Shown here: piece after piece, positions 132-64,000 of the stretch | Numbering within the stretch: the first letter of the stretch is position 1 | Layout of the letters: every line of letters begins with the position of its first letter | From: the human T2T-CHM13v2.0 reference genome, Homo sapiens | Length of the DNA: 64,000 nucleotides | Reading direction: 5' to 3' | Assembly (NCBI GenBank): GCA_009914755.4 | Contig: CP086569.2 | Location: 3,968,001 to 4,032,000 of the forward strand | Made by a program: the position numbers and the translations under genes | Notes under the pieces: generated by a model | What the model saw: only the letters and a program-made list of their open reading frames with translations | Database searches by the model: none | What the model was told of the DNA's origin: nothing

Positions 132-169
132 TAAGGTCTTGGATTTGACAATAAAAATGAGAAACCGAG

Positions 170-540
170 TGTATTAGTCCATTCTCACACTGCTATAAAG
201 AAATACCCAAGACTGGGTAATTTATAAAGGAAGAGGGTTTAATTGACTCACAGTTCCACATGGCTGGTGAAGTCTTAGGAAACTTACAATAATGGAGGAA
301 GGCAAAGAGGAAGCGAAGACCTTTTTCACATGGCATCAGGAGGGAGCAAAGTGTGCAAAGGAGGAATTTGCCAAACACTTATAAAGCCATCAGATCTCAT
401 AAGAACTCACTCATTATCACAAGAACAGCATGGGGGAAACTGCCCACGTTTTAATCACCTCCCAACAGGTTTCTCTCTTAACACCTGGGGATTAAAATTC
501 AAGATGAAATTTGGTTGGGACACAAAGCCTAACCATATCA
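170..540 (-). mobile_element. THE1-type (ERVL-MaLR) solo LTR
   Basis: Reverse complement of the THE1 LTR consensus from tgtattagtcc...ttaattgactcacagttc...catcagatctc...acaagaacagcatggggg...tcacctcccaac...ggggattaaaattcaagatgaaatttggttggga...aaccatatca. It is flanked by near-identical 5-bp direct repeats, ccgag at 165-169 and ctgag at 541-545. Confidence 0.8.
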
Positions 541-2930: not shown

Positions 2931-5900
2931 GTAATACTTAATGAAACTAAAAACAGGAGAGTCTGTAATGTTAATTCCAACTATTCTCCCATGAAGAAAC
3001 TTAGTACATGGTTCATGATAGCACAAGGGAGAGTCTATTAGTAACAGAATAAATAAGTGAGATAAATTGGCTGTAGTAGGGAGTTGAAAGCAGAGTAACC
3101 ATTTACAGTAGTCCATTAATGAGTTTATAGCTTCAAAAATCACCTGCATGCAACTTCTATGCATATAGCAGCATTCTAAGCATTACAGAAAATACAAAAT
3201 AGTTCACTGACTGTTAGGTAGTCAAGAACCATCTTAGGGAATAAAGTTAAGAAAAAAGAATAATATCTTAATAACCCCTAAGAGGTAATAAAAGTATTAG
3301 AAGGAGAGAGAGAGATAGCACCAGATCTGGTTAGGAGAGACTTAGCTTATACAAAGTTTTAGTGGTGACAAATGAGCAATTTTTCTTGACTGACTACAAA
3401 ATAGATTAACCTGGTCAGAATAAAAGATTCACAGTCGTGAACCACGTAATATCAGTCAGTGATGGACCACATATATGATGATGATTTCATAAGATTATAA
3501 TGAAGCTGAAAATTTCTATAGCCTGTTGTTTACTATACTGCACTTTTCATCATTATTTAGAATGTATTATTGTGAAAGAGTAACGTATAAAAAATATTAC
3601 CTGTAAAACAGCCTCAGGCAGGTCCTTCAGGAGGTATTTAAGAAGAAACCATTGTTATCATAGGAGATGACAGCTTCATGCAAGTAATTGCCCCTGAAAA
3701 TCTGAGATGTGGAGGTAGAAGACAGTGATATTTATGATTCTGGCTCTGTGTAGGCCTAGCATCAAGTGTATTTTTGTGTCTTCGTTTATAACAAAAAAAG
3801 TTTAAAAACTAATGAAAACATTAAAAATTATTTTTAAAAAGGTTGTAAACAAGCATATAAACAAAGAAAATATTGTTGTACAGCTATGAGGTGTTTTTGT
3901 GTTTGAAGCTAAGTATTATTTTTGATCAGTCAAGGAGTTGAAAAAATAAAAATTTTATGATGCAAAAAAGTTATAGTAAGCCAAGCTTAATTTATTTTCA
4001 AGAAAAAACAATATTTTAAATGAACTTAGCACAGCCAAAGTGTTCAATGTTTATAAAGTCTGCAGTTGAATGCAATCTTAGGCCTTTACATTCACTTACC
4101 ACTCACTCACTGATTCAACCAGAGCAACTTCTAGTCCTGTGAGTTCCATTCATGCTGAGAGCCTTATACAGATGTATCAAATTTAATCTTGTACGCTATA
4201 TTTTGACTCTACCTTTTCTATGCTTAGATATGTTTAGATGCACACATATATATTATTGTGTTACAATTGCCTACAGTATTCAGTTCACTAACGTATCACA
4301 CAGGTTTGTATCCTAGAAGCAATAAGGTATACTCTATAGCTTAGGTGTGTAGTAAGCTATAACATCTAGGTTTGTGTACATACATTCTACAATATTTATT
4401 CAATGAAGAAATTGCCTAAGAATACATTTCTCAGAAATATATTCACTGTTTTAAACAATATGTTATTGCAACAGGCATACCTCAGTTTTTTGTTATTTGC
4501 TTTATTGTGCTTCACAGATATTGTGTTTATTAACATTTAAGGTTTGTGGCAATCCTGTATCAAGAAAGCCTATTGGTAACAATTTTCCAACATCACTTGC
4601 TTACTTTGTGTCTCTGTGTTACATTTTGGCAATTCTCATAATATTTCAAAAATTTTCAGTATTATATCAGCTATGGTCATTTATGGTCTCTGATGTTACT
4701 ATTGTAATTGTTCTGTGGCACCATAAACTGCGGTCACATAAGACAGTAAACTTAATACATAAATGTTGTATGTGTTCTGACTGCTCCACCTACCAGCATT
4801 TCCCCCATCTTTCTCCCTCTTGTCAGGCCTGTCTATACCTTGAGACACAACAATATTTAAATTAGGCCAATTAATAACCCTACAATGACATGTAAGTATT
4901 CACGTCAAATAGAGTTTCATGTCTCTCACTTTAAATCAAAAGGTAGAAAGTGATTAGACTTAATAAAGAAGGCACTTCAAAAATCAAAATAGGCTGAAAA
5001 CTAGGCATCTTGCACTAAATAATGAGCCAAGTTGTGAATGCAAACTAAAAGTTATTGGAGAAAATTAGAAGTGCTACTCCAGTAAAAATCTGAATGATAA
5101 GAAAGTGAAACAGCCTTATTACGTGCTGATATGGAGAAAATTTCAGTAGTCTGAATCAAAGACAAACCAGCCACAAAATTCACTTAGGCAAAAGCCCAAT
5201 CCAGAGCAAGGCCCTAACACTCGTTAATTCTATGAAAACTGAGAGAGGTGAGGATGTTACGGTAGGAAAGTTTGAAGCTAGTAGAGGTTGGTTCATGAGG
5301 TTGAAGGAAATAAGCCATTTTCATAACACAAAAACGCAAGGTGAATCAGCAAATGCTGATGGAGAAGCTGCAGCAAGTTATCTGGAAGATCTAGCTAGGA
5401 TAATTGAAGAAGGTGGCTATACTAAACAACAGATTTTCATTGTAGACAAAAACAGCCTTCTGTTGGAAGATGATGACATCTAGGACTTTCATAGATGGAG
5501 AAAGGAAGTCAATGCCTGACTTCAAAGCTTTAATAGACAAGGTGACTCTCTTGTTAGTGGCTAATGCAGCTGGTGACTTTAAATTTAAGTCAGTGCTCAT
5601 CTACTATTCTGAAAATCCTAGGGTATTTAAAAATTATGCTAATTATACTCTGCCTGTCCTCTATAAATGGAGTGGCAAAACCTGGATGAGAGAACATCTG
5701 TTTACCATATGGTTTACTTAATATGTAAGCCCGCTGTTGAGACCTACTGCTCAGAAATAAAGATTTCATTCAAAATATTACTGTTCACTGACAATTCACC
5801 TAGTCAACCTAGAACTCTGATGAAAATTTGCAAGGAGATTAATGTAGTTTTCATGCCTGTTAACACAATATCCATTCTGTAGCCCTAGATGAATGAATGT

Positions 5901-5941
5901 TTTTGACTTCCAAGACTTATTTAAGAAAAGCATTTCATAAT

Positions 5942-6115
<174 letters not shown>

Positions 6116-6454: not shown

Positions 6455-6505
6455 CTCCCTCTCCCTCTCCCTCTCCCTCTCCCTCTCCCTCTCCCTCTCC
6501 CCTCT
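6455..6505 (+). repeat. (CTCCCT)n hexamer array, the 5' module of the SVA
   Basis: Eight tandem ctccct units followed by ctcccctctttccatggtctccctctgatgccgag. Confidence 0.9.
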
Positions 6506-7839
6506 TTCCATGGTCTCCCTCTGATGCCGAGCTGAGGCTGGACTGTACTGCCGCTGTCTTGGCTCACTGCAACCTCCCTGCCTGATTCTCGTGCCTCAGG
6601 CTGCCGAGTGCCTGGGATTGCAGGTGCACGCCGCCACGCCTGACTGGTTTCCGTATTTTTTTGGTGGAGACAGGGTTTCACTGTGTTGGCCGGGCTGGTC
6701 TCTAGCTCCTAAACATGAGTGATCTGCCAGCCTCGGCCTCCCGAGGTGCCGGGATTGCAGATGGAGTCTCCTTCACTCAGTGCTCAATGTTACCCAGGCT
6801 GGAGTGCAGTGGTGTGATCTCGGCTCAATACAACCTCCACCTCCCAGCCGCCTGCCTTGGCCTCCCAAAGTGCGGAAATTGCAGCCTCTGCCCGGCCGCC
6901 ACCCCGTCTGGGAAGTGAGGAGCGTCTCTGCCTGGCCGCCCATCATCTGGGATGTGAAGAGCCCCTCTGCCCGGCTGCCCAGTCTGGGAAGTGAGGAGCG
7001 CCTCTTCCCGGCCGCCATCCCATCTAGGAAGTGAGGGGCATCTCTGCCCAGCTGCCCATCATCTGAGATGTGGTGAGCGCCTCTGCCCCGCTGCCCCGTC
7101 TGGGATGTAAGAAGTGCCTCTGCCTAGCTGTGACCCCATCTGGGAGGTGAGGAGCGTCTCTGTCCGGCTGCCCCATCTGAGAAGTGAGGGGCCCCTCCGC
7201 CCGGCAGCCACCCCATCTGTGAAGTGAGGAGCCCCTCCGCCCTGCAGCCGCCCCGTCTGGGAGGTGTACCCAACAGCTCATTGAGAGCTGGCCATTATGA
7301 CAATGGCAGTTTTGTCGAGTAGAGAGGGGGGAAATGTGGGGAGGGGATGGAGAGGTCGGATTGTTGCTGCGTCTGTGTAGAGGGAAGTAGACATAGGAGA
7401 CTCCATTTTGTTCTGTACTAAGAAAAATTCTTCTGCCTTGGGATGCTGTAAATCTATAACCTTACCCCCAACCCTGTGCTCTCTGAAACACGTGCTGTGT
7501 CCACTCAGGGTTAAATGGATTAAGGGCGGTGCAAGATGTGCTTTGTTAAACAGATGCTTGAAGGCAGCATGCTCATTAAGAGTCATCACCACTCCCTAAT
7601 CTCAAGTACCCAGGGACACAAACACTGCAGAAGGCCGCAGGGTCCTCTGCCTAGGAAAACCAGAGACCCTTGTTCACTTGTTTATCTGCTGACCTTCCCT
7701 CCACTATTGTCCTATGACCCTGCCAAATCCCCCTCTGCGAGAAACACCCAAGAATGATCAATAAATACTAAAAAAAAAAATAAAATAAAAACAAAATAAA
7801 ATAAATAAAAATCAAGAGGGGGAATATTAAAAAATAAAT
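6455..7839 (+). mobile_element. SVA composite retrotransposon (hominid-specific), short copy, nested in Tigger1
   Basis: Canonical SVA order on the + strand. A (CTCCCT)n hexamer array lies at 6455-6505. An antisense Alu-like region follows at about 6506-6890 (gagacagggtttcactgtgttggccgggctggtctc). A GC-rich VNTR of roughly 37-40 bp units lies at about 6890-7260 (gccgccaccccgtctgggaagtgaggagcgtctctgcc...). A SINE-R (HERV-K-derived) region at 7261-7773 starts gtgtacccaacagctcattgagag and ends ..gagaaacacccaagaatgatcaataaatactaaaaaaaaaaa. The poly(A) and A-rich tail run to 7839. Putative target-site duplication: aaatacattg at 6445-6454 and aaataaattg at 7840-7849. Confidence 0.85.
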
Positions 7840-16900: not shown

Positions 16901-17077
16901 AGAGTGGATTGGCACAGTACACACAAGTGCACAGAGCAATGGGGGAGAATGAAATGCACGGTGCATGGCAAGGAAACTGAGCACATTCACTCCAGGAAGA
17001 GCTGGCAAACTCCAGCTTGGGAATCTACAGTGGTCACTTATTAAGCCATCTGGGGGCAGGATTTTTTCTGCAGTCAA

Positions 17078-17163
17078 CTTGTCTGTTTCAAGTCATTTGA
17101 CACCCCTAGTTACAGCTTACTTGTCTGTTTCAAGTCATTTGACACCCCTAGTTACAGCTTACC
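17078..17163. repeat. Tandem duplication, 43 bp in two copies
   Basis: ttgtctgtttcaagtcatttgacacccctagttacagcttac is repeated twice (17078-17120 and 17121-17163). Confidence 0.85.
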
Positions 17164-27844: not shown

Positions 27845-28878
27845 TTCTAGATTTCAGAGAATGTAAGAAAATGCCTGGATGTCCAGGCAGAAGTTTGCTG
27901 CAGGGATCTCTTTTAGGGCAGTGCAAAAGGGAAATGTGGTGTGGGAGCTCCCACACAAAGTCCCCACTAGGCAGCACTGCCTAGTGGAGCTGTTAGAAGA
28001 GGGACACCATATGCCAGACCCCAGAATGGTAGATCCATTGACAGCTTGCACCATGTGCCTGGAAAAGCCACAGACACTCAAAGCCAGCCTGTGAAAGCAG
28101 CCAGAAGCAGGGGGGATGTACTTTGCAAGGTCACAGGGATGAAGGTGCCCAAGGCCATGGGAACCCACCTCTTACATCAGTTTGACCTGGATGTGAGACA
28201 TGGAGCCAAAGGAGATCATTTTGGAGCTTTAAGATTTGACTGCCCCACTGGATTTCGGACTTGCATGGGGCATGTAGCCCCTTCATTTTGGCCAATTTCT
28301 TCTATTTTGAATGAGTGCATTTACCCAATACCTGTACTCCCATTGCATTTAGAAAGTAATACTCAGAAGGGACTTGGCGTGTCTCAGATGAGACTTTGGA
28401 CTGTGGAGTTTTGAGTTAATGCTGAAATGAGTTAAGACTTTGGGGGACTGTCGGGAAGGCATCATTGGTTTTTAAATGTGAGGGCATAAGATTTGGGAGG
28501 GCTTGGGGGCAGAATGATAGGGTTTGGCTGTGTCCCCACCCAAATTTCATGTAAAATTGTAGCTCCTATAATTCCCACGTCCTGGGAGGGACCCAGTGGG
28601 AGGTAATCGAATCATGCGCGTGGATATTTCCCATGCTGTTCTTGTGATAGTAAATAAGTCTCCCAAGAGCTGAATGTTTTATAAAGGGGAGTTCCCCTAC
28701 ACAAGCTCTTTTTGCCTGCCACCATGTAAGACATGACATTGCTCCTGCTTTATTTTCCACCATGATTGTGGGGCCTCCCCAGCCATGTGGAACTGTGAAT
28801 CCATTAAACCTCTTTCCTTTATAAATTACCTTGTCTCAGGTATGTCTTTATGAGCAGTGTAAGAACAGACTAGTACAC
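27845..28878 (+). mobile_element. THE1 (ERVL-MaLR), 5'-truncated: internal 3' region (27845-28514) plus 3' LTR (28515-28878)
   Basis: The LTR at 28515-28878 is tgatagggtttggctgtgtccccacccaaat.tcat...attgtagctcc.ataattcccacgt..tgggagggacccagtgggaggtaat.gaatcatg...gtgatagtaaataagtctc...tttataaag.ggagttcccct.cacaagctct...gcctgccaccatgtaagacatgac.ttgctcct...ccaccatgattgtg.ggcctccccagccatgtggaactgtgaatccattaaacctctttcctttataaattacc..gtctcaggtatgtctttat.agcagtgtaagaacagactagtaca. The upstream internal part is the same sequence seen in reverse complement at 57990-58700. Confidence 0.85.
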
Positions 28879-30474
28879 CCTTGATCCAGTTTAATATCTT
28901 TATTTTATAGCTGCAGATACTGAGTCATAAAAGAGAAATTTACCTACATAAAGTCATAAATATATTAGATGAATTTAATAGGACAAATAAGAATTATAAG
29001 ACTATGTTCGAGATGGTTCAAGGCTATTTTCCTAAGTATCTGTACATCTGTGTTCACACATGCAAGAGTGGTGGAGAGTATAAAATCTTGAAACAGACCT
29101 ACTGTGTTCAAATCCAGGATCCATGACTTTGTCAGTCAGGGTTCTATTAGAAAACAAAACCAAGGTTAGATTGAAAGATATGGATGATAGGTAGGAATAG
29201 ATAATAGAGAGAGAGAGATCAATAGATAGATAGACAGTTGGTGGATCTGTTAAAGTATTAATTTTACAATTGTGGGAGCAGGCTATTCTTGCAGCTGATG
29301 CAAGAGCTTGAATCCACAGGATAAGCAGCAGGGAAAGAAAGATAGATGTAAGAAAGATAGATGTCCCAGGAAAAAATTGGGACAGTATGAGGGCAGACTG
29401 AAACCCATGTAAGTCCTCATTGTCTCTGACCTTGATAATGTAGATGTCACACAGAAGCCAGGGCTCTTTGTCATGGAGATAAACATATCACATAGGTTAG
29501 GATTTGGAAAAGTCAAAGGAAAATCCAGGAAATGCTGGAGCCCTTACAGGCTAACTACTGCTTCATGCTAACAAAGTGAGTTTGCAGATCAGCAACAATA
29601 TGTGTAAGAGACAAAACAGCTGCTATTTCCCATCCTTTTTCTAAATCTCTAAAGAATCTCACTTGTGGTCCACTCCATCCAGCAACATAGAGCAAATAAA
29701 TTTATTAGAAATAGAATTCAACCTAGCCAAGTTGGCACATTAGAAAGCCACCACAAAGACTTATAAGCTATGGGTTTTACAGCAAATTAATTAATTTTAA
29801 TATCCTAATCCTTAAAATATTAATAGTAATGATATCAATCACATAGGGTTGTTACAAATGATCAAATGAAATAAGTATGTAAAGAGTATAACACACACGG
29901 TCCCTAGAATATTGTTTATACTACATACATATTAACATAGAGGGTCACAAATTTACTATTACCTAAAAATTTATCTTTGCACTTTCTCTGTAATCAACTC
30001 TAATTTCACTTTCTGCTCGCATAGATGAATACCCTGGTTTTTAGCTAAAATTTTATAGTTAGAAAGACAAAAAGAAAAACATATTAATCCTTTTCAAATT
30101 ATTACCTTATTTTATTTACTTTTTATTAATCATCATTTTATATTACTGCTCTTGCTGTGTGTTATTATGTTGTCATTGTTCTTGTTATTGCCTGAAATGT
30201 CTTCTCTGTTTTTCTGTATTCTCAAAACCTTCCCATTTTTTACATCATCTCTTTCTACTTCTAATGCAGCTTTTCTTCACTGAACTTCCACTTTTCTGAA
30301 CTCATAATCTATATTTATAATGCTTGTCATGCATTATTTCTCCTACACAAATTAGCACTTAGTTGTACACATTCATATATAATTAATTAAGTGACTTGTA
30401 TATATTATTGTTGGATCTTTAACTGAGTTCTAAGTTTCTGGAGGGCAGAAGAAAGTCTAAGATTGCTAGTATTT

Positions 30475-33400: not shown

Positions 33401-36400
33401 AAATCACATAATGGGAAGTAAAACACTCCTGAGCAAAAGAAAAAGATCTGAAATCATAACCAACAGTCTCTCAGAAAATAGTGCAATCAAATTAGAACTC
33501 CAGATTAAGAAACTCACTCAAAACCATACAACTACGTGGAAATTGAACAACCTGCTCCTAAGTGAGTCCTGGGTAAATAATGAAATTAAGGCAGAAATCA
33601 AGAAGCTATTTGAAACCAATAAGAACAAAAAGTCAACACACCAGAATCTCTAGGACACAGCTAAAGCAGCGTTAAGAGGAAATTTATAGCACTAAATGCC
33701 CAATCAAAAAGCTAGAAAGACCTCACTCAAATCTACCCCCTACATCACAATTAATAGAACTAGAGAACTAAGAGAGAGAAAAAAAAACAACACTAGCAGA
33801 AGATAAAAAATAATCAAGATCAAAGCAGAACTGAAGGAAATAGAGACAAGAAAAAAATCTTAAAAAAAAAATCAATGAATGCAGGAGCTGGTTTTTGAAA
33901 AAATTAATGAACTAGATAGACCACTAGCTAGACAAATAAAGAAGAAAAGAGAGAAGAATCAAACAGACAAAAAAATTATAAAGGGGATATCACCACTGCC
34001 CCACAGAAATACAAAGTGCAATTAGATAATATTATAAACATTTCCATGCAAACAAACTAGAAAATCCAGAAGTAAGTGGATAAATGCCTGGACACACACA
34101 ACCTCCCAAGACAGAACCAGGAAGAAATTGAATCTCTGAATAGACCAATAACAAGCTCTGAAATTGAAGCAATAATAAATAGCCTACCAACTAAAAAAAG
34201 CCCAGGAACAGAGAGATTTACAGCCGAATTTTACCAGAGATACAAAGAGAAATTGGTACAATTCTTTCTAAAACTATTCCAAACAATTGAAAAGGATAGA
34301 TTTCTCCCTAACTTATTTTATGAGGCCAGATTCATCCTGATACCAAAACCTGGCAGAGATACCATAAGAAAACAAAACTTCAGGCCAACAATCCTGATGA
34401 ACATCGATGCAAAAATTCTTAATAAAATACTCACAAACTGAATGCAGCAGCACATCAAAAAGTTTATCCACCGCAAGCAAGTTGGCTTCATTCTCATGAT
34501 GCAAGACTGGTACAACATACACAAATCAATAAATGTAATTCACCAAATAAACAGATCTAAAGACACAAACCATGTGATTATCTCAGTAGATTCAAAAAGG
34601 GCTTTTGACATAATTTAACATCCCTTCATGTTAAAAATTCTGTATAAACTAGATATTGATGGTACATGCCTCAAAATAACAAAAGCAATTTTTGGCAAAC
34701 CCACAACCAATATCATGCTGAATGGGCAAAAGCTGGAACCATTCCCTTTGAAAACCGGCACAAGACAAGGATGCCCTCTGTCACCACTCCTATTCAACAT
34801 AGTATTGAAAATTCTGGCCAGGGCAATCAGGCAAGAGAAAGAAATAAATGTTCAAATAGTAAGAAAGGAAGTCAAACTGTCTCTGTTTGCAGATGACATG
34901 ATCCTTTATTTAGAAAATCCTATAGTCTCAGCCCAAAAGCTTCTTAAGCTGCTAAGCAACTTCAGCAGTATCAGGATACAAAATCAATGTGCAAAAATCA
35001 CAAGCATTCCTATACTCCAATGATAGACAAGCAAAGAGTCAAATCATAAAGGAACTCCCAATTACTAAAAAGAGAATAAAAAATCTAGGAATACAGCTGA
35101 CAGGGAAAGTTAAAGACCTCTTAAAAGAGAACTAGAAACCACTTCTCGAGGAAATTAGAGAAGACACAAACAAATGGAAAAACAGTCCATGCTCATAGAT
35201 AGGAAGAATCAATATTGTGAAAATGGCTATACTGCCCAAGTAATTTATAGATTCAAAGCTATTCTCATTAAACTACCATTGACATTCTTCACAGAATTAG
35301 AAAAAAGTACTTTAAAGTTTATATTGAACCAAAAAGGAGTCCATGTAAGTGAAGACAATCCTAAGCAAAAAGAATCAACCTAGAGACACCACACTACTCA
35401 ACTTCAAACTATACTACAAGACCACAGTAACCAAAACAGCATGGTACTGTTGCACCATGTACAGGTACAAAAAAGACACATAGACCAATGAAACAGAATA
35501 CAGAACTCAGAAATAAGACCACACATCTACAACCTCTGATCTTCGAGAAACCTGACAAAAACAAGCAATGGGGAAAGGATTCCCTATTTAATAAATGGTG
35601 GTGGGAAAATTGGCTAGCCTTATGCAGAAAATAGAAACTGGACCCCTTCCTTATACCTTGTAAAAAATAAATCAAGGTGGATTAAAGACTTATATGTAAA
35701 ACCCAAAACTATAAAAACCCTAGACAAAAATGTAGGCAATAGCATTTAGGACATAAGTACAAGCAAACATTTCATGAAAAAAACGTCAAAAGCAATTGCA
35801 ACAAAAGCAAAAAATGGCAAATGGCATCTAATTAAACTAATGAGCTTCTACAGAGCAAAAGAAACTGCCATCAGAGTGAACAGACAACCTACAGAATGGG
35901 AGAAAGTTTTTGCAATGTATCCATCTGACAAAGGTCTAATATCCACAATCTGCAAAGACCTTAAACAAATTTACAAGAAGAAAACAAGCAACCCCATTAA
36001 AAAGTGGGCAAAGAACACGAACAAACACTTCTCAAAAGAAGACATTTATGTAGCCAACAAACGTATCAAAAAAGCTCAACATCTGTGATCATTAGAGAAA
36101 TGCACATCAAAACTACAATGTGATACCATCTCACACCAGTCAGAATGGCAATCACTAAAAAGTCAAGAAACAAACAGATGCTGGCGAGTCTATGGAGAAA
36201 TAGGAAGACTTTGACACTGTTGGTGGGAATGTAAATTATTTAAACCATTGTGGTAGACACCGTGGCAATTCCTCAAAGTCCTAGAACCAGAAATACCATT
36301 TGACCCAGCAACCCCATTACTGGGTATATTGTCAAAGGTATATGAATCATTCTGTTATAAAGATACATGCATGCATATCTTCATTGCAGCATTAATCCCA

Positions 36401-40436: not shown

Positions 40437-42490
40437 TTTTTATTAGTTTTTAAATTTTAAAAAAATTAATAATTTTTATTTTAAAATTTTACATTCAGGG
40501 AGTACATTTGCATGTTCCTTACATGGATATATTGCATAATGGTGGATATTGGGTTTCTAGCATACCAGTCACCAAAATAATGAACATTGTATTCAGTAGG
40601 TATGCTTTTAACACTCACCCCTCTCCTCCCCCATTTTGTAGTCCCCAGTATCTATCCCATTTTGTTTTAAATTGAGCTTATTTTGATCTTCCCTCTTCTT
40701 TTCTTGGTTAATCTTGCTAATGGTATAACAATTTTATTTATTTTTTCCAAGAACCATCTTTTTCTTTCATCTATCTTTTGTATTTGTTTGTTTGTTTCAA
40801 TTTCATTTAGTTCTTCTCTGATCTTGGTGATTTCTTTTCTTCTGCTGGGTCTGGGTTTGGTTTGTTCTTGTTTCTCTATTCCTTGAGGTATGACCTTAGA
40901 TTGTCTATTTGTGCTCTTTCAGCTTTTTTGATGTAGGCATTTAATGCTGTAAACTGCCCTTTTAGCACTGACTTCTATATCTCAGAGGTTTTTATAGGTT
41001 TTGTCACTATTATAATTCAGTTCAAATAATTTTTTAATTTCCCTCTTGATTCTATAGTTAACCCAAAGATCATTCAGGAACAGGTTATTTAATTTCCATG
41101 TATTTATGTTGTTTTGAAGATTCCTTTTGAAATTGATCTCCAATTTCATTCCACTGTGGTCTGAGAGAGTACTTAATATAATTTCATTTTTTAAAATTTA
41201 TTGTGACTTGTTTTGTGGCCTACCACATGGTCTGTCTTGGAGAAAGTTCCATACACTTACTTGTAGAATGTGTATTCTTCGGTTGGTGGGTGAAATGTTC
41301 TGTACATATTTGTTAAGTCTATTTGTTCTAGAGAATAGTTTAAATCCATTGTTTTTTGTTAACTTTCTACCTTGATGACCTGTCTAATGCTGTTAGTGGG
41401 GTATTGAAGTCCTTCACTATTATTTTGTTGCTATCTAACTCATTTCTTATGTCTGGTAGTAATTGTTTATAAATTTGGGATCTCCAGTGTTAGGTGCATA
41501 TACATTTAGGATTGTAATATTTTCCTGTTGGACAAGGCCTTTTATCATTAAACAATGTCCCTCTTTTTTTTGTAAATGTGGTTTCTTTAAAGTTTTTCTG
41601 TCTGATATAAGAATAGCTACTCTTGCTCACTTTTCGTGTCCATTTGCATGGAATGTCTTTTTCCACCCCTTTATGTTAAATTTATTTGTGTCCTTATGTG
41701 TTAGTGAATCTCTTGAAAGCAGAAGATACTTTGTTGGTGAATTCTTATCTATTCTGCCATTCTGTATCTTTTAAGTGGAGCATTTAGGCCATTTACATTC
41801 AAAGGCAGTATTGAGATGTTAGGTACTATTCCATTCATCATGCTATTTGTTGCCCGAATACCTTGGGTTTTTAAAAATTTATTTATTGTATTTTTATTTT
41901 ATAGATATTGTGAGATTAATGCCTTAAGGAGGTTCTGTTTTAATGTGTTTTTAGAATTTGTTTCAAGATTTAGATCTCCTCTTAGCAGTTCTTGCAGTGC
42001 TGGCTTGTTAGGGGCGAATTCTTTCAGCATTTGTTTGTCTAAAACAAACTGTGTCTTTCCTTCATTTATCAAGTTAGTTTCACTGGATACAAAATTCTTG
42101 GCTGATAATTGTTTTGTTTAAGGAGGTTGAAGATAGGACCCCAATCCCTTCTAGCTTGTAGGGTTTCTGCTGAGGAATCTGCTGTTAATCTGATAGGTTT
42201 TTCTTCATAGGTTACCTGGTGCTTTTGTTTTACACTCTTAAGATTCTTTCCTTCATCCTGACTTTAGATAACCTGATGATGTACCTAGATGATAACCTTT
42301 TTGCAATAAATTTTTCAGGTGTTCTTTGAGCTTCTTGTATTTGGATGTCTAGATCTCTAGCAAGGCCAGGGAAGATTTCCTCAATAATTCCCCCAAATAC
42401 ATTTTCCAAACTTCTATATTTCTCTTCTTCTTCAGGAACACCAATTATTCTTATGTTTGGCCATTTAACATAATCCCAAATTTCTTGGAG
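40437..42490 (-). mobile_element. L1 segment(s), antisense: a 3'-terminal about 250 bp with the A/T-rich tail in reverse complement (40437-40685), joined to ORF2 codons about 1-400 plus the ORF1 C-terminal half (40686-42490)
   Basis: The 40490-40680 region is the reverse complement of the L1 3' end (acactcacccctctcctcccccattttgtagtccccagtatctat). The 40690-40960 region is the reverse complement of ORF2 codons about 330-410 (ttaatcttgctaatggtataacaatttt...ggcatttaatgctgtaaactgccc). The minus-strand translation of 42230-42490 reads ..QEIWDYVKWPNIRIIGVPEEEEKYRSLENVFGGIIEEIFPGLARDLDIQIQEAQRTPEKFIAKRLSSRYIIRLSKVRMKERILR, the ORF1 C-terminal domain. The roughly 2.6 kb between ORF2 codon 400 and the 3' end is absent. 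Confidence 0.75.
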
Positions 42491-42492
42491 CC

Positions 42493-45400
42493 TTTGGCTA
42501 CAAAAGGTATTAAATAACCACACAACAGTAGTGGGAGACTTTAATGTCCCACTGACAGTGTTAAACAAATCACCAAGGCATAAAACTACCAAAGGAACTT
42601 TAGATTCAAATAGGAAAGTAGATAAATTGAACCTAATAGAAATATACAGAACACACCACCCAACAACCATAGAATATATTTTCTTCTCATCTGCACATGG
42701 AACATATTCTAAGACTAACCTCATGCTCTGTCATAAAGCAAACTTCAATAAATTTAAAAAAAACTGAAATTATACCAAGTATACTCTTGAACCACTGTGC
42801 AATAAAAATGGAAATCAATATCAATAAGATCTCTCAAAACTACATAAGTACATAGAAATTAAACTACTTACTCCTCAAAAACTCCTCGGTGAACAAAATT
42901 CATTAAGAAATAAAAAATATTCTATAAAATTAATGCAAATAGGGACACAATTGACTGAAATCTCTGGGATGTAGCCAAAGCAGTGTTAAGACAAAAGTTT
43001 ACAGACTAAACACTTTCCTCAAGTAGTTAGAAAAGTTTCAAATTACCAGTGTAAGTTTGTACCTAAAGGAATTAGGAAAAAAAAAGTACAAACCAACCCA
43101 AAGGTAGTAGAAAAAGACACATTAAAATTAGAGAAAAACTGAATGAAATAGAGATGCCAAAATTCATACGAAAGATCATTGAAACCAATAGTTGGTTATT
43201 TAGAGAAATAAACAAGATTATAGACCCATAACAAGATTAAAAAAGAAAAAGAAAGATAAGATACAAAGCACAATCAGCATTGACAAAGGTAATATTACAA
43301 CTGACTTCACAGAAATACAAAAGATCCTCAGAGACTGCTAGGAACAATTCTATGCACACAAATTGGAAAATCTAGAAGAGATGTATACATTTCTAGAACC
43401 ACACACACTGCCAAGATTTTTTCAGGAAGAGATTAAAACCCTGAACAGAACAATGTAAACTTCTGAAATGCAAGCAATAATAAAGAACCTGTTAACCAAA
43501 AAAAAAAAAAAAAAAAAAAACCCTGAACCAGATAGATTCACAGCTAAATTCTAACAGTAGAACAAAGAAAAATAGACACAAAACCTAGTGAAATAATTCC
43601 AAAACAAAATGAGGAGTAGGGGCTTTTCCTTAACTAATTCTGTGAAGCCAGCATTATCCTGATACCAAAATATGACAGAGCCACTAAAATAAACTAAAGA
43701 ACAAAACAAAACAACAAAAAAAACTTCAGACCAATATCTGTCATTAACATAAATGCAAAAATATTTAAGAAAATACCAGCAAATGGAATACAGTAACCCA
43801 TCAAAAAGTTTACATACCACAGGCAAGTAAGCTTTATTCTTGGAATGCAAGGCTAGTTCAATCTATGCAAATCAATAAACGTGATTCACCACATAAACAA
43901 AATTAAATATAAAAACCATATGATTATTTCAAAAGACAAAGAAACTTCTTTTGATAAAATTCAAAATCAATTCATGATAAAAACTCTCAACATATTAGGC
44001 ATCAAAGGAACATATCTCAAAATAATGAGAGCCATCTATGACAAATACACAATTAACATCACATTGAATGGGCAAAAACTTGAACAATTTCCCTTAAGAA
44101 CTGAAACAAGATAAGGATACTCACTTTTGCCACACCTATTCAACATAATACTAAAAGTCCTAGCCAGAACAATCAGGCAAGATAAATAAATGAAAGACAT
44201 CCAAACTGGAAAATATGAAGTTAAACTATTTATCTGCAGATGATATAATTATATACCTAGAAAATCCTAAAGACTCTGCCAAAATATTCCCAAAATTGAT
44301 AATTGACTTTAGTAAAATTTCAGGACACAAAATCAATGTACAAATCTAATTATTATTTTTGTACACCAAAAACATCCAGGCTGAGAGTGAAATCAAGAAC
44401 ACAATCTCACCTATGAAAGTGACAAAGAAAATTAAATGCCTAGTAATATAGCAAACTAAGGAAGTTAAAGATCTCTACAAGGGAGCTACAAAACCCTGCT
44501 GAAAAAATCAAAGATGATACAACTAAATAGAGAAACATTCCATCCTTGTAGATTGAAGAATCAATATTATAAAAAATTGTCATATGGACCAAAGCAATTT
44601 ACAGATTCAATGTTATTCCTATAAAACTACCAATGTCCTTCTTTAAGGAATTAGAGAAAACTGTTCTAAAATGCATATGAAACAAAAAACCCAAATAGAC
44701 AAAAGAATCCTAAGTGAATGAATAAAGTCAGAGGCATCACATTACCTAACTTTAAGTATTTTATAAAACCACAGTAACGAAAACAGCTTGATACTGGTAT
44801 GAAAGCAGACACATAAATGAATGGAAAAAAAAAAAGATAGAAACCTCAAAAATAAAGTTGCACACTTACAACCATCTGATCTTTGACAAGGCCAACAAAG
44901 ATAAGTAATATCGAAATAACTCCCCATTCAACAAATGGTGCTGGGATAACAGGTTAGGAGATTGAAGCTCGACCCCTACTTTTATCATATACAAAATTTA
45001 ACTCAATATGGAATAAAACTTTAAATGTAATACTTCCAAATATAAAAATCCTTAAAGACAAACTAGGAAATACTCTTGTCGACATCAGCCTTGGCAAATA
45101 ATTTTTGGCTGTCCCCAAAAGCAATTGCAACAAGAATAAAAATAGACTAGGACTTAATTAAACTAAACAGCTTCTGCATAGCAAAAGAAACAACAGAGAA
45201 AACAGACAACCTACAGAATAAGAGAATATATTTATAAACTATGCATTTTACAAAGGCCTCACATCCATAATCTGCAGAGAACTTAAACAAATCAACAAGC
45301 AAAAACCAAATAACGACATTTAAAAATGGGCAAAAAACATGAGCAGACATTTTTCAATAGAAGACATGCAAGTGGCCAACAAACATATAAAAAAAGTTCA

Positions 45401-57302: not shown

Positions 57303-57339
57303 TGTGTGTGTGTGTGTGTGTGTGTGAGAGTGTGTGTGT
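57303..57339. repeat. (GT)n microsatellite with one interruption
   Basis: (tg)12 agag (tg)5. Confidence 0.95.
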
Positions 57340-59088
57340 ATTCTCTTATAATATATACCCATATTTTCTTATTATTAAGCTTATACATATCAAGACAAAT
57401 TCCCTTAGTCCCTGGAATTCCTAATATGGGATATACCCAGTAAGAAGAGTGAGAAGGCAAGGCAGCATGGATTAAGTAGGACACCAATATTCACAAAGTG
57501 AGGAAAAGAGAATGTGCCAATGAAAAAAAATGGAAAAGAAATATTCAAAGAAGTAAAAATCTAAGATAACGACATAGAAGCTAAAAGAGAAAATAGTTTC
57601 AAAAAGATGAAGTGGTATATTAGTCTGTTCTCATGCTGCAATAAAGAACTGCTTGAGATTGGGTAATTTATAAGGAAAGAGGTTTAATTGACTCACAGTT
57701 CTGCACAGCTGGGGAAGCCTCAGGAAACCTACAATCATGGCAGAAGGGGGGAGCAAAAACAGCCTTCTTCAAATGACGGTGGGAAGGAGAAGTGCTAAGC
57801 AAAGGTGGAAAAATCCCATATAAAACCATCAGATTTTGTAAGAACTCACTATCATGAGAACAGCAGCATGGGGGTAACCACCACCATGACTCAATTACCT
57901 CCCACCAAGTTTCTCCCATAACACGTGGGGATTATGGAAACTACAATTCAAGATGATATTTGGGTGGAGACGCAGACAAACCATATTATTTCATCCCTGG
58001 CCCCTCCCAATCTCGTGTTCTTGCAATTTAAAACACAAACATGCTTTTCCAACAGTCCTCCAAAGTCTTAACTCATTCCAGCATTCACCCAAACGTCCAA
58101 GTCCCGAGTTTCATCTGAGACAAGGCAAGTCCCTTCCACCTATGAGCCTGCAAAATCAAAAGCAAGTTTGTTACTTCCTAGATACAATTCAGGTACAGCA
58201 TTGGTAAAATGCACTTTCTCCAAGTGGGAGAAATTGGCCAAAACAAAGGGGTCACAGGCCCCATGCATGTTTGAAATTCATTAGGGTAGTCATTAAACCC
58301 TAAAGCTACAAAATGATATTTTTTTACTTCATGTCTCACATCCAGTTCATGCTGATGCAAGAGGTGGGCTCCCACTGCCTTGGGCAGCTTCACCCCTGTG
58401 GCTTTTCAGGATACAGCCCCCTTCCTAGCTGCTTTCATGGTCTGGTGTTGAGTGCCTGCAGCTTTTTCAGGTGCACAGTGCAAGCTGTCAGTGGGTCTAC
58501 CATTCTGGGGTCTGGAGGATGGTGGACCCCTTCTCACAGCTCCACTAGGCAGTGCCCCAGTGGGGACTCTGTGTGGGGGCTCCAACCCTACATTTTTCTT
58601 CCTCACTGTCCTAGAAGAGATTCACCATGAGGGCTCTGCCCCTGCAGCAAACTTCTGCCTGGACAGTCAGGCATTTTCATACATCCTCTGAAATCTAGGC
58701 AGAGGTTGCCAAACCTCAATTCTTGTCTTCTGCACACCTGCAGGATCAACACCATGTGGAAGCTGCCAAGGCTTGGGGCTGAAGCAATGGCCCGAGCTAT
58801 ACCTTGGCCCCCTTTAGCCATGGCTGGAGCTGAAGCATCTGGGATGCACAGCACCATGTCCCTAGGCTACGCAAAGCAGGAGGGTCCTGGGCTAGGTCCA
58901 GGAAAGCATTTTTACCTTTTAGACCTTCAGGCTTGTGATGGGAGGGGCTGCCATGAAGGTCTCTGAAATGCTCTGGAAACATTTTTTCCATTGTCTTGCT
59001 AGTTAACATTTGACTCTCTGTTATTAATGCAATTTTCTTCAGTGGGATTGAATTTATCCCCAGAAAATGTTTTTATTTTCTGTCATAT

Positions 59089-60069
59089 TGAGAGGTGACA
59101 ATGTGCTAGCAGCCCTCACTCTCGGCACCTCCTCGGCCTCGGCGTCCACTCTGGCTGCACTCGAGGAGCCCTTCAGCCTGCTGCTGCATCTGGTGGAGGC
59201 CTTTGAGGCTGGCTGAGTCTGGAGCCAGCTCCCTCTGCTTGCCGTGAGGTGGGGAGGGAGAGGCGTGGGCAGGAGCGGGGCTGTGTGCCGCGCTCGCAGA
59301 CCAGTGTGGGTTCCAGGTGGGCACGGGCTTGGTGGGCCCTGCACTCAGGAAGGCCGGCCGGTGACTGCTGGGCTTGACTGGGGGATGAGCTCCCTCTGGG
59401 CTGCCAGAGTGCCTGGGCTAGGTGCCGCAAAGACCCATGGTGAGTGCCATTGAAAAGTGAAGCCAAGGTTTATAAATGCACCAATCAGTGCTCTGTGTCT
59501 AGCTAATCTAGTGGTGACTTGGAGAACTTTTCTGTCTAGCTAAAGGATTGTAAACGCACCAATCAGCACTCTGTGTCTAGCTAAAGGTTTGTAAATGCAT
59601 CAATCAGTGCTCTGTGTCTAGCTAATCTGGTGGGGACTTGGAGAACTTTTGTGTCTAGCTAAAGGATTGTAAACGCACCAATCAGCTCTCTGTAAAACGG
59701 ACCAATCAGCTCTCTGTAATATGGACCAATCAGCAGGATGTGGGTGGGCCAGATAAGGGAATAAAAGCAGACCATCCGAGCCAGCAGTGGCAACCTGCTT
59801 AGGTCCCCTTCCACACTGTGGAAGCTTTGTTCTTTTGCTCTTCGCAGTCAATCTTGCTGCTGCTAACTCTTTTGGTCTGTGCCACCTTTATGAACTGTAA
59901 TGCTCACCGCAAAAGTCTGCAGCTTCACTCCTGAGGCCAGCGAGACCACAAACCCACCGGAAGGAATGAGCAACTCCAGATGCACTTAAGAGCTGTAACA
60001 CTCACTGAGGGGGTCCGCAGCTTCATTCTTGAAGTCAGCAAGACCAAGAACCCACCAATTCCACACACA
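59089..60069 (+). mobile_element. LTR12-family (HERV9/ERV1) solo LTR, about 980 bp, nested inside the THE1 internal region
   Basis: Begins tgagaggtgaca and ends ..gaagtcagcaagaccaagaacccaccaattccacacaca, i.e. TG..CA termini. A GC-rich 5' part (59089-59460) retains CpGs. The U3 carries 5 tandem units containing ccaatcag. The promoter-proximal block reads gatgtgggtgggccagataagggaataaaagcagaccatccgagccagcagtggcaacc...ccttccacactgtggaagctttgttctttt, followed by two actcac(c/t)g(c/a)..gtc(t/c)gcagcttca.tc.tgaag.cagc.agaccaa.aacccacc units. A 4-bp TSD atat lies at 59085-59088 and 60070-60073. Confidence 0.85.
59470..59770 (+). promoter_or_regulatory. LTR12 U3 enhancer/promoter module: 5 CCAAT-box tandem repeats, a GC/GT box and a TATA-like element
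   Basis: ccaatcag occurs at 59481, 59559, 59678, 59702 and 59726, with a degenerate tcaatcag at 59600. gtgggtggg lies at 59738-59746 and agataagggaataaaag at 59751-59767. LTR12 elements with this architecture are known to act as NF-Y/Sp1-dependent promoters. The downstream poly(A) signal position reads agtcaa rather than aataaa in this copy. Confidence 0.6.
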
Positions 60070-61549
60070 ATATCATCAGGCTACAATTTTTCAAATTTTT
60101 ATGCTGTGCTTCCTATTGAATGCTTTGCCACTTAGAAATTTCTTTCAGCAGTTACCCTAAATGATCTCTCTCAAGTTCAAAGTTCCATAGATCCCTAGGG
60201 CAGGGGCAAAATGCCACCAGTCTTTTTGCTAAAGAATAGCAAGAATCACCTTTATTTCAGTTCCCAGGAAGTTCCTCATCTCCATCTGAGATCCTCTCAG
60301 CCTGGACTTCATTGTCCATATCACTATCAGCATTTAGTGAAAGCCATTCAACAAGTCTCCAGGAAGTTCCAAACTTTCCCACATTTTTCTCTATTCTGAG
60401 CTGTCAAAGTTATTACAACCTCTGTCTGTTACCCAGCTTCAGAGTTGCTTCCACATTTTCAGTTATCCTTACAGCAGAGCCCCACTACCTCCTAGTACCA
60501 ATTTACTGTGTTCATTTATTCTTATGCTGCTATAAAGAAATGCCCATGACTGGGTAATTTATAAAGGAAAGAGGTTTAATTGGCTCACAGTTCAGCATGG
60601 CTTGGGCGGCCTCAGGAAACTTACGATCATAGCGGAAGGGGAAGCAAACACATCCTTCTTCACATGATTGCAGGAAGGAGAAGCGCCAAAGACCCTTATA
60701 AAACCATCAGATCTCATGAGAACTCACTCACTGTCACAGCAGCATGGGGGTAACTGCCCCCATAATTCAATTACCTTCCACCAGGTCCCTCCCACAACAT
60801 GTGGGAGTTATGGGAACTACAATTCAAGATGAGATTTGGGTGGGGATGCAGCAAAATTATATCAAGTGGTCAATAATGTCAAATGCTGCAGAAAGTCTCA
60901 GTAATATCAAGTTTAAAAACAAGGCACAGAATTTGGCATAAATAGTACTTTAGTGTCCTTGCTGATATAAGTTTCTTCTTGTGGGTATGAATGAAATTCA
61001 TTTATATTGCCAACAACACTACCTCAAATAATTCCTAAAGTCTCTTTTTGAAAATTCATTTAAATTGGTTCTCCTATTTAAAAAGCCAGATAAATTTAAA
61101 CATAAATATCCCACACTGCATGTTACAACAAGCTGAAGGCCCAGAATCAAATAATATTCTCTTCTGATTGAGCTTCATAGAAGAATGTAAAACAAATCAA
61201 CTTTTTTTTTCTTTACTGCTATTTGTTAATCTGTGCATGGTACTCAAAATTGTTTAGAAACAGGCAGATTGGACCAATGCTAGGAACTTCCAAAAATGAT
61301 GTAAGGTTGAGTAACTCATAGTAAACAATAACTTGGTTGTACATTTAAAGACAACTAAAAGAGTGTAATCATATTATTTGCAACTCAAAGGATAAATGCT
61401 TGAGGAGATGGATATCCAATTCACTATGATGTAATTATTTCACTTTGCATGCCTGTTTCAAAACATTTCATGTATGCCATAAATATATACACCTACAGTG
61501 TATTCACTAAAATTAGAAAATAGGAAACTAAGCAAAACAAAACAAAACA

Positions 61550-64000
<2,451 letters not shown>

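What the first reader, a model, noticed from the sequence alone, without database searches (positions are those of the whole stretch)
59089..60073. CpG-retaining LTR12 (HERV9) solo LTR with five CCAAT-box repeat units, GC box and TATA-like element, nested antisense inside a THE1
LTR12-family LTRs are well documented as NF-Y and Sp1-driven, epigenetically silenced promoters that can be reactivated (for example by HDAC or DNMT inhibition) and can drive chimeric transcripts. This copy keeps the key motifs: ccaatcag five times, gtgggtggg, and ataagggaataaaag. It also keeps many CpGs in its 5' GC-rich part, suggesting methylation-protected or relatively recent sequence. Its own poly(A) signal appears mutated (agtcaa), so transcripts starting here would read through on the + strand into the THE1 antisense sequence and beyond. 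The 4-bp atat TSD supports a bona fide integration rather than a rearrangement.
Basis: partly seen in the sequence, partly recalled or inferred. Interest (0 to 1): 0.55.

Follow-up and report, generated by a model that had tools for sequence, protein, structure and literature searches.

The report
Ordinary decayed ERV9 (LTR12) solo LTR
This is an ordinary leftover retroviral promoter, a solo LTR of the well-known primate ERV9/LTR12 family, sitting inside an older retrotransposon; its promoter motifs are intact, but it is old and CpG-depleted, and nothing suggests it is special.

Summary
Window 59089-60069 (+) is a 981-bp LTR with TG..CA ends and a 4-bp ATAT target-site duplication. It carries five CCAATCAG boxes, GTGGGTGGG, AATAAAA and the published LTR12 start-site motif GCCAGCAGTGGC at 70% of its length. 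It also has two U5 repeats and one perfect U7 "HDE-like" motif.

I fetched 120 homologous copies from human-contaminated metagenome contigs. Their homology starts and stops at these termini. One copy (L025) continues into a PBS-like sequence and gag-pro-pol, so the family is a retroviral LTR. This copy has neither, so it is a solo LTR.

It lies inside an antisense THE1-like MaLR element (57616-60864) that has its own 5-bp duplication, AGTGG. The poly(A) hexamer is mutated: AGTCAA here against AATAAA in 70 of 95 copies.

The "CpG-retaining, so protected or recent" reading fails. Only 5 of 36 covered consensus CpG sites survive, and 21 are now TG or CA. That is the lowest retention among 46 copies, and no 200-bp window reaches CpG-island criteria.

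The element is short and diverged, not of the LTR12C type. The exact subfamily cannot be assigned without Dfam. Promoter activity cannot be tested here. It is most likely a silenced relic with latent NF-Y/Sp1 promoter potential. Already known kind; low interest.

The parts
59085..59088 (.). 5' copy of the 4-bp target-site duplication (ATAT)
   Evidence: Read directly from the sequence. Identical to 60070-60073.
59089..60069 (+). LTR12-family (ERV9) solo LTR, 981 bp, TG...CA termini
   Evidence: BLAST against 120 fetched copies: alignments start at 59085-59089 and end at 60057-60078, and none reaches into the flanks.
59089..59464 (+). GC-rich 5' part of U3; short form lacking about 350 nt that most fetched (LTR12C-like) copies have
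   Evidence: The first 352 nt have GC 0.67 and 15 CpGs, observed/expected 0.39. Blocks of 44, 43 and 264 alignment columns, present in more than half of copies, are absent after 59356-59388.
59465..59742 (+). U3 tandem-repeat enhancer region: six 24-nt core units, five with CCAATCAG and one with TCAATCAG
   Evidence: Tandem Repeats Finder periods 41, 119 and 24. Direct-repeat family D2 has six copies. Motif positions.
59740..59748 (+). GT/GC box (GTGGGTGGG) directly upstream of the TATA-like box; one G shorter than the family consensus GTGGGTGGGG
   Evidence: The literature places an Sp1 site directly upstream of the TATA-like box (PMC11853044).
59760..59766 (+). AATAAAA TATA-like box
   Evidence: GAATAAAAGC is kept in 79 of 95 copies, including this one.
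59780..59791 (+). GCCAGCAGTGGC inverted repeat; published LTR12 start-site motif marking the U3/R border
   Evidence: Single occurrence in the window, at 70.4% of the LTR length. Exact in only 42 of 95 copies. Motif and its ~70% position are from PMC11853044.
59846..59851 (+). Mutated R-region poly(A) hexamer (AGTCAA in place of AATAAA)
   Evidence: At this column 70 of 95 copies have AATAAA, and this copy alone has AGTCAA.
59888..59958 (+). U5 'B element' repeat, copy 1 (71 nt)
   Evidence: Direct-repeat family D3.
59986..60056 (+). U5 'B element' repeat, copy 2 (71 nt, 75% identical to copy 1); contains a perfect U7 HDE-like motif AAGAGCTGTAACACT at 59988-60002
   Evidence: Motif sequence from PMC11417402.
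60070..60073 (.). 3' copy of the 4-bp target-site duplication (ATAT)
57616..60864 (-). Host element: full-length THE1-like MaLR (LTR-internal-LTR), 2264 bp without the insert. Its LTRs are at about 57616-57986 and 60519-60864. It is flanked by a 5-bp duplication, AGTGG, at 57611-57615 and 60865-60869.
   Evidence: The two LTRs are 78.9% identical over 360 nt in the same orientation. Related copies lie at 169-538 and 27847-28886. Termini and duplication.

Best explanation
The element is a solo LTR of the primate endogenous retrovirus ERV9, that is, a member of the LTR12 family. It is a short, diverged form, not of the LTR12C type.

An ERV9 provirus integrated in + orientation into the internal region of an older, antisense THE1-like MaLR element, making a 4-bp ATAT duplication. 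Recombination between its two LTRs then removed the viral genes and left one LTR.

The LTR still carries the family's promoter layout:
- five NF-Y CCAAT boxes in the U3 repeats;
- a GT/Sp1-type box;
- the AATAAAA TATA-like box;
- the GCCAGCAGTGGC start-site repeat at 59780-59791;
- one U7 HDE-like motif in U5.

It has lost its poly(A) hexamer and all GATA cores, and most of its ancestral CpGs have decayed to TG or CA. That decay is what long-term germline methylation produces.

It most likely sits silent and methylated in normal somatic tissue. It may be a latent promoter that fires on the + strand under HDAC or DNMT inhibition or in germ cells. Transcripts would then run through the antisense MaLR into a sense L1 before the first poly(A) hexamers at 61679 and 61857.

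Identity, boundaries, nesting and motif content are shown. Silencing and latent activity are inferred.
For: - **Termini and duplication:**
- **Interspersed repeat with these exact ends:** 120 copies were fetched from human skin, gut and oral metagenome contigs, and homology begins and ends at the termini.
- **The family is a retroviral LTR:** in L025 the homologous LTR is followed by TTTTGGCGACCCAGATGGGAC (PBS-like). ORFs after it match Gag_MA, zf-CCHC, RVP, RVT_1, RNase_H, rve and Integrase_H2C2. Six copies are preceded by a shared polypurine tract, AGAGGGGGGAT.
- **This copy is solo:** it has neither a PBS nor a polypurine tract. Its flanks belong to a MaLR with its own AGTGG duplication.
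- **Literature-defined features (PMC11853044, PMC11417402) found here:** about 41-nt U3 repeats with CCAAT; a GT box upstream of AATAAAA; GCCAGCAGTGGC at 70.4% of the length; U5 repeats; the HDE-like motif.
- **CpG decay:** 5 of 36 consensus CpG sites are kept and 21 are TG or CA.
- **Poly(A) hexamer:** AGTCAA against AATAAA in 70 of 95 copies.
- **Background on activity:** most LTR12 copies lie in unmarked chromatin, and 10-60% are NF-Y bound depending on subfamily (PMC12065363).
Against: - No Dfam or Repbase model could be run, so the family label rests on homology to unlabelled copies plus published motif descriptions. The subfamily is unresolved.
- The closest fetched copy (L098) is only 82.5% identical over the aligned U3.
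- The majority consensus used for the CpG analysis is LTR12C-like. Some of the 'lost' CpGs may never have existed in this copy's own subfamily.
- No expression, methylation or ChIP data could be consulted, so both silence and latent activity are inferred.
- The empty-site test failed: no uninterrupted MaLR copy across the junction was found.
Confidence: 0.9

Rival explanations
1. The LTR is an active alternative promoter, or the start site of a non-coding RNA, in some normal tissue (for example testis or early embryo) or after epigenetic drugs. It would drive a + strand transcript that reads through into the MaLR and L1 sequence or splices to a downstream exon.
For: - The core promoter is better preserved than in many copies. 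The exact GCCAGCAGTGGC is present in only 42 of 95 copies and this one has it, and AATAAAA is intact.
- Five optimal CCAATCAG boxes are present.
- The LTR's own poly(A) hexamer is destroyed, and the next hexamers lie about 1.9 kb downstream.
- Hundreds of LTR12 copies are inducible by HDAC or DNMT inhibitors or by U7 depletion (PMC5085097, PMC11317136, PMC11417402).
Against: - Heavy CpG-to-TpG/CpA decay argues for long-standing germline methylation.
- Published chimeric-transcript drivers are mainly LTR12C, D and E, which carry the ~600-bp 5' extension (PMC8767690). This copy lacks about 350 nt of the region that most fetched copies have.
- The perfect HDE-like motif would favour U7-mediated repression (PMC11417402).
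- The 4 kb downstream in the window is only repeats, with no exon evidence.
- The GATA cores are lost.
Confidence: 0.15
2. The LTR acts mainly as an NF-Y-bound distal enhancer or chromatin element rather than as a promoter.
For: - There are five high-quality CCAAT boxes within about 250 bp.
- NF-Y binds 10-60% of LTR12 copies. The bound copies that carry any chromatin mark are mostly enhancer-like (PMC12065363).
Against: - Most bound LTR12 copies lie in unmarked chromatin (PMC12065363).
- This is an AT-rich, repeat-dense region, GC 0.356 overall, with no gene identified in the window.
- Nothing can be tested here.
Confidence: 0.1
3. It is not an independent retroviral integration. It would be part of a larger ERV9 provirus, or a segment moved here by rearrangement or gene conversion.
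For: None beyond the general possibility. The empty-site test could not be completed.
Against: - The complete TG...CA termini coincide with the homology boundaries.
- An identical 4-bp duplication is present. Among other copies, 3 of 20 also show 4-bp duplications, against about 0.08 expected by chance, despite chimeric assemblies.
- The flanks lack a PBS or polypurine tract. Joined together, they complete a 2264-bp MaLR with its own 5-bp duplication.
Confidence: 0.02

Closest known systems
LTR12 family (LTRs of ERV9/HERV9, class I ERV): LTR12, LTR12_, LTR12B, C, D, E, F
   Same: - TG...CA termini and a 4-bp duplication.
- A GC-rich 5' U3.
- About 41-nt U3 repeats with CCAAT(CAG) NF-Y boxes.
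- A GT/Sp1 box, then AATAAAA, then the GCCAGCAGTGGC start-site motif at about 70% of the length.
- About 72-nt U5 repeats carrying the U7 HDE-like motif.
- Homology to copies that flank PBS-gag-pro-pol.
   Different: - Short form, 981 bp, lacking about 350 nt of the central GC-rich region present in most fetched LTR12C-like copies.
- No GATA core in the U3 repeats: TCTGTGTCTAGCT instead of TCTGTATCTAGCT.
- Poly(A) hexamer mutated.
- Strongest CpG loss of the sampled copies.
- Subfamily not assignable without Dfam or Repbase.
Co-opted LTR12 promoters (for example LTR12D at DHRS2; LTR12C at GBP2/GBP5, TP63, TNFRSF10B)
   Same: Same promoter motif grammar (NF-Y boxes, Sp1-type box, TATA-like box, start-site inverted repeat), so the same mode of activation is conceivable (PMC11853044, PMC5085097).
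   Different: No downstream gene or exon is identified within the window. There is no evidence of activity. The copy is more decayed and lacks part of the 5' region associated with driving chimeric transcripts (PMC8767690).
THE1/MST-type MaLR (ERVL-MaLR) elements, the host of the insertion
   Same: A structure of about 360-bp LTR, about 1.55-kb non-coding internal part and another LTR, with a 5-bp duplication. Its own-strand 5' end, TGATATAATTTTGCTGCATCCCCACCCAAATCTCATCTTGAATTGTAG, resembles the THE1 consensus start as I recall it.
   Different: THE1 versus MST subfamily is not testable here. The resemblance to the THE1 consensus rests on memory, not on a library search.

Membership tests
LTR12 (ERV9 LTR) | Full-length sequence homology to other family copies, with homology ending at TG...CA termini | tested here: met
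   120 copies were fetched. Alignment starts cluster at 59085-59089 and ends at 60057-60078, and no alignment enters the flanks.
LTR12 (ERV9 LTR) | Family copies bound a class I provirus (LTR-PBS-gag-pro-pol...PPT-LTR) | tested here: met
   L025 runs from the LTR into a PBS-like sequence and then ORFs matching Gag_MA, zf-CCHC, RVP, RVT_1, RNase_H and rve. A shared polypurine tract lies upstream of six copies. That the PBS matches tRNA-Arg is from memory, not tested.
LTR12 (ERV9 LTR) | U3 enhancer of 5-17 tandem ~41-nt repeats bearing CCAAT (PMC11853044) | tested here: met
   Period-41 array x4, plus 119- and 24-nt periods. Six core units, five with CCAATCAG. This is at the low end of the published range.
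LTR12 (ERV9 LTR) | Sp1-type box directly upstream of an AATAAAA box, with the start-site motif GCCAGCAGTGGC at about 70% of the LTR (PMC11853044) | tested here: met
   GTGGGTGGG at 59740, AATAAAA at 59760, and GCCAGCAGTGGC at 59780, which is 70.4% of the length.
LTR12 (ERV9 LTR) | GATA motif (TCTGTATCTAGCT) and MZF1-like GTGGGGA in the U3 repeats (PMC11853044) | tested here: not met
   There is no TATC anywhere in the LTR. Three units read TCTGTGTCTAGCT. GTGGGGA is kept once in the repeats, at 59630. This is a loss within one copy, since the family consensus tolerates both variants; it does not argue against membership.
LTR12 (ERV9 LTR) | U5 with ~72-bp B-element repeats; U7 HDE-like motif AAGAGCTGTAACACT (PMC11853044, PMC11417402) | tested here: met
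   Two 71-nt units at 59888-59958 and 59986-60056. A perfect HDE-like motif at 59988-60002.
LTR12 (ERV9 LTR) | AATAAA poly(A) signal in R | tested here: not met
   AGTCAA here against AATAAA in 70 of 95 copies. This is a copy-specific mutation.
LTR12 (ERV9 LTR) | 4-bp target-site duplication | tested here: met
   ATAT on both sides. Three of 20 other copies with both ends also show 4-bp duplications, against about 0.08 expected. The other 17 lack an exact 4-mer match, and some at least are chimeric short-read assemblies: L020 and L044 share an upstream flank but have different downstream flanks.
LTR12 (ERV9 LTR) | Match to a curated Dfam/Repbase LTR12 model and subfamily assignment (LTR12, _, B, C, D, E, F) | not testable with these tools
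   No repeat library is available. The architecture differs from the majority LTR12C-like copies, and the length of 981 bp lies within the published 500 to >1300 bp range.
Solo LTR | No adjoining ERV internal sequence; both flanks belong to the pre-existing target | tested here: met
   The flanks lack a PBS or polypurine tract. They form one MaLR with two same-orientation LTRs and an AGTGG duplication.
Active LTR12 promoter or enhancer | NF-Y occupancy, start-site usage, open or unmethylated chromatin | not testable with these tools
   No functional genomics data are available. CpG decay argues indirectly for germline methylation.
CpG island | At least 200 bp with GC >= 0.5 and CpG observed/expected >= 0.6 | tested here: not met
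   The highest observed/expected value in any 200-bp window is 0.485.
THE1 (MaLR) host element | LTR-internal-LTR structure with a 5-bp duplication; match to a THE1 model | tested here: inconclusive
   The structure and the duplication are met. THE1 versus MST subfamily cannot be tested without a repeat library.

The most novel reading that the evidence does not exclude
Despite its decay, this short-form LTR12 could be the start site of an unannotated, testis- or drug-inducible non-coding transcript. Because its own poly(A) signal is destroyed, the transcript would read about 1.9 kb or more through antisense MaLR sequence into a sense L1. The single perfect U7 HDE-like motif in the transcribed U5 would act as its off-switch.
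Probability: 0.12. Interest if true: 0.25.

Novelty: already known. Interest (0 to 1): 0.08.

Why it matters
It matters little. LTR12 solo LTRs number about 4,000-6,000 in the human genome and are routinely annotated, and their NF-Y/Sp1 promoter grammar is well described. The useful result is a correction. This copy is not CpG-protected or young. It is among the most CpG-decayed of the sampled copies, while by chance it keeps an intact core promoter and has lost its poly(A) signal. It would gain modest interest only if locus-level data showed that it starts a real transcript.

Tried and rejected
- **Viral contig scan.** A scan of viral contigs for the LTR12 core 23-mer found nothing.
- **Empty-site test.** I scanned genome contigs for the reconstructed pre-integration 20-mer, TTCTGTCATATCATCAGGCT. 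The single hit was in a Nitrospinaceae genome assembled from a metagenome and matched only those 20 bases, so it is a chance match. The other MaLR copy in the window (27847-28886) stops before the insertion point, so it gives no internal empty site either.
- **Duplications in other copies.** Only 3 of 20 copies showed clean 4-bp duplications. Some at least are chimeric short-read assemblies that share one flank but not the other, for example L020 and L044. This supports a 4-bp duplication for the family but is not conclusive.
- **Rfam.** A gathering-threshold scan of the window gave no match.
- **Bacterial promoter/terminator scan.** It is irrelevant to a eukaryotic LTR. Its only use was to show the R-region hairpin.
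- **Age from divergence.** The majority consensus is LTR12C-like. The 19% non-CpG divergence in U3 therefore mixes subfamily differences with decay, and I rejected it as an age estimate.
- **Subfamily assignment.** Clustering the fetched copies gave only weak neighbours: L098 at 82.5%, and L117 and L093 at about 79%.
- **Locus identification.** The six ORFs of 130 aa or more gave only L1 ORF1 or ORF2 matches, or nothing, so the locus could not be mapped.
Full report
**1. Observation**

The sequence at 59089-60069 (+) is a 981-bp element that begins TGAGAGG and ends ACACACA. It is flanked by ATAT at 59085-59088 and at 60070-60073. The finding's end coordinate, 60073, includes the 3' duplication.

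- CCAATCAG at 59481, 59559, 59678, 59702 and 59726. These are the only + strand copies in 64 kb. One more lies on the - strand at 1846, and about 2.6 are expected in the whole window.
- A degenerate sixth unit, TCAATCAG, at 59600.
- GTGGGTGGG at 59740.
- ATAAGGGAATAAAAG at 59753.
- AGTCAA at 59846.

The repeats are real. Tandem Repeats Finder gives a 41-nt period (4 copies), a 119-nt duplication (94% identical) and a 24-nt period (2.7 copies). The 3' part holds two 71-nt units.

The LTR has 24 CpGs (observed/expected 0.33), of which 15 are in the first 352 nt (0.39). The flanks have 0.04-0.11.

**2. What it is**

No repeat library is available, so I fetched relatives. The 23-mer CCAATCAGCAGGATGTGGGTGGG gave no hit in viral contigs. 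The contigs whose names state a source are from human skin, gut and oral samples, so I take these hits to be human contamination.

BLAST of the element with 500-nt flanks against these loci shows homology starting at 59085-59089 and ending at 60057-60078. No alignment enters the flanks. The segment is therefore an interspersed repeat with exactly these ends.

The family is a retroviral LTR:
- In L025 the homologous LTR runs into TTTTGGCGACCCAGATGGGAC, which is PBS-like. I recall that ERV9 uses tRNA-Arg, but I did not test this.
- ORFs after that sequence match Gag_MA, zf-CCHC, RVP, RVT_1, RNase_H, rve and Integrase_H2C2.
- Several other copies have the same PBS-like sequence downstream.
- Six copies share the polypurine tract AGAGGGGGGAT upstream.

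The window copy has neither a PBS nor a polypurine tract, so it is a solo LTR.

**3. Host element**

The flanks belong to one MaLR element in the opposite orientation. Its LTR copies lie at about 57616-57986 and 60519-60864 and are 78.9% identical. Related copies lie at 169-538 and 27847-28886.

The MaLR spans 57616-60864 and has its own 5-bp duplication, AGTGG, at 57611-57615 and 60865-60869. Without the insert it is 2264 bp. Nesting is therefore shown. Its own-strand 5' end looks THE1-like from memory, but THE1 versus MST was not testable.

**4. Comparison with the published definition of LTR12**

The review PMC11853044 lists these family features:
- 5-17 U3 repeats of about 41 nt with CCAAT/NF-Y, GATA (TCTGTATCTAGCT) and MZF1 (GTGGGGA) motifs;
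- an Sp1 site just upstream of an AATAAAA box;
- the start site within GCCAGCAGTGGC at about 70% of the LTR;
- 72-bp U5 repeats.

Here GCCAGCAGTGGC is at 59780-59791, which is 70.4% of the length. AATAAAA is at 59760. One GTGGGGA is kept in the repeats, at 59630. There is no GATA core at all: three units read TCTGTGTCTAGCT.

The U7 snRNA HDE-like motif, AAGAGCTGTAACACT (PMC11417402), occurs once, perfectly, at 59988-60002 in the second U5 unit.

In a 95-copy alignment of the core promoter and R region:
- this copy is 89% identical to the majority consensus, which equals the median of the copies;
- it keeps the exact start-site motif, which only 42 of 95 copies do;
- it keeps the AATAAAA box (79 of 95 copies);
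- it is the only copy reading AGTCAA where 70 of 95 have AATAAA.

The poly(A) claim therefore holds. The next + strand poly(A) hexamers are ATTAAA at 61679 and AATAAA at 61857. They lie just upstream of a sense L1 ORF2 fragment at 62490-63431.

**5.

"CpG-retaining, hence methylation-protected or recent" does not survive comparison with the family.

- In the first 350 nt most other copies hold about 20-29 CpGs (observed/expected about 0.45-0.65). This copy holds 15 (0.39).
- Of 57 majority-consensus CpG sites in U3, this copy covers 36 and keeps 5 (14%, against a median of 65%). Twenty-one are TG or CA, the deamination signature. That is the lowest retention of 46 copies.
- No 200-bp window reaches CpG-island criteria; the maximum observed/expected is 0.485.

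The element looks CpG-rich only against its much older, fully decayed surroundings.

One caveat applies. The consensus is LTR12C-like, and this copy belongs to a different, short-form lineage. It lacks about 350 nt of the central GC-rich region, and its best neighbour, L098, is 82.5% identical. Some of the "lost" sites may therefore never have existed in its own subfamily.

**6. Mechanism**

- *Shown:* integration with a 4-bp duplication into a MaLR; solo-LTR status; an intact NF-Y, GT-box, TATA-like and start-site layout; a destroyed poly(A) hexamer; lost GATA cores; strong CpG decay.
- *Inferred:* the LTR has been methylated in the germline for a long time and is silent in most tissues. If derepressed (HDAC or DNMT inhibition, U7 loss, germ cells; PMC5085097, PMC11317136, PMC11417402), it would start on the + strand at about 59780-59791 and read through.

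The literature says chimeric-transcript drivers are chiefly LTR12C, D and E, which carry the ~600-bp 5' extension (PMC8767690). It also says most LTR12 copies lie in unmarked chromatin even when NF-Y is bound (PMC12065363). I therefore give about 0.15 to real promoter activity at this copy.

**7. Novelty and verdict**

This is a routine member of a well-known repeat family, in a repeat-dense, AT-rich stretch of a hominoid genome. An SVA-like array elsewhere in the window supports the hominoid origin. The kind is already known and interest is low.

Its CpG inference is wrong, and its functional suggestion remains untested.

Noticed in passing
window 6455-7266: A (CTCCCT)n hexamer run at 6455-6501 is followed by a roughly 40-bp GC-rich VNTR array at 6884-7266 (9.8 copies). 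This is the layout of an SVA retrotransposon in + orientation and would place the window in a hominoid genome.
   Followed up: no
window 62490-63431 (+), 34628-35023 (+), 42230-42724 (-): These are L1 remnants. Two ORFs match reverse transcriptase (RVT_1) and one matches the L1 ORF1 RBD-like domain (Transposase_22). The first lies about 2.4 kb downstream of the LTR12 on the same strand.
   Followed up: partly
window 169-538 and 27847-28886: Two further MaLR copies are related to the host element: a solo LTR (+) and an LTR plus about 700 nt of internal sequence (-), about 72% identical to it.
   Followed up: partly
window 59808-59824: A perfect 7-bp hairpin, CTTCCACACTGTGGAAG, lies in the R region about 20-30 nt downstream of the start-site motif. 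It is conserved in the 95-copy family consensus. Its function was not examined.
   Followed up: no
L025 770-830; L106 (downstream of the LTR): Some ERV9 proviral copies carry two or three tandem PBS-like units (TTTTGGCGNCC...GGGAC) directly after the LTR. This may correspond to the 'short appendage upstream of the PBS' bound by ZNF728 that PMC8767690 describes.
   Followed up: no
L116 (LTR at about 919-2357): One LTR copy is preceded by the proviral polypurine tract and followed by a PBS-like sequence. This means either tandem proviruses sharing an LTR or a chimeric metagenome assembly.
   Followed up: no
window 57303-57340: A (GT)n microsatellite lies about 280 nt upstream of the MaLR host element.
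   Followed up: no
window 17077-17162: A perfect (100% identical) tandem duplication of a 42-bp unit. This looks like a recent local duplication and is unrelated to the finding.
   Followed up: no
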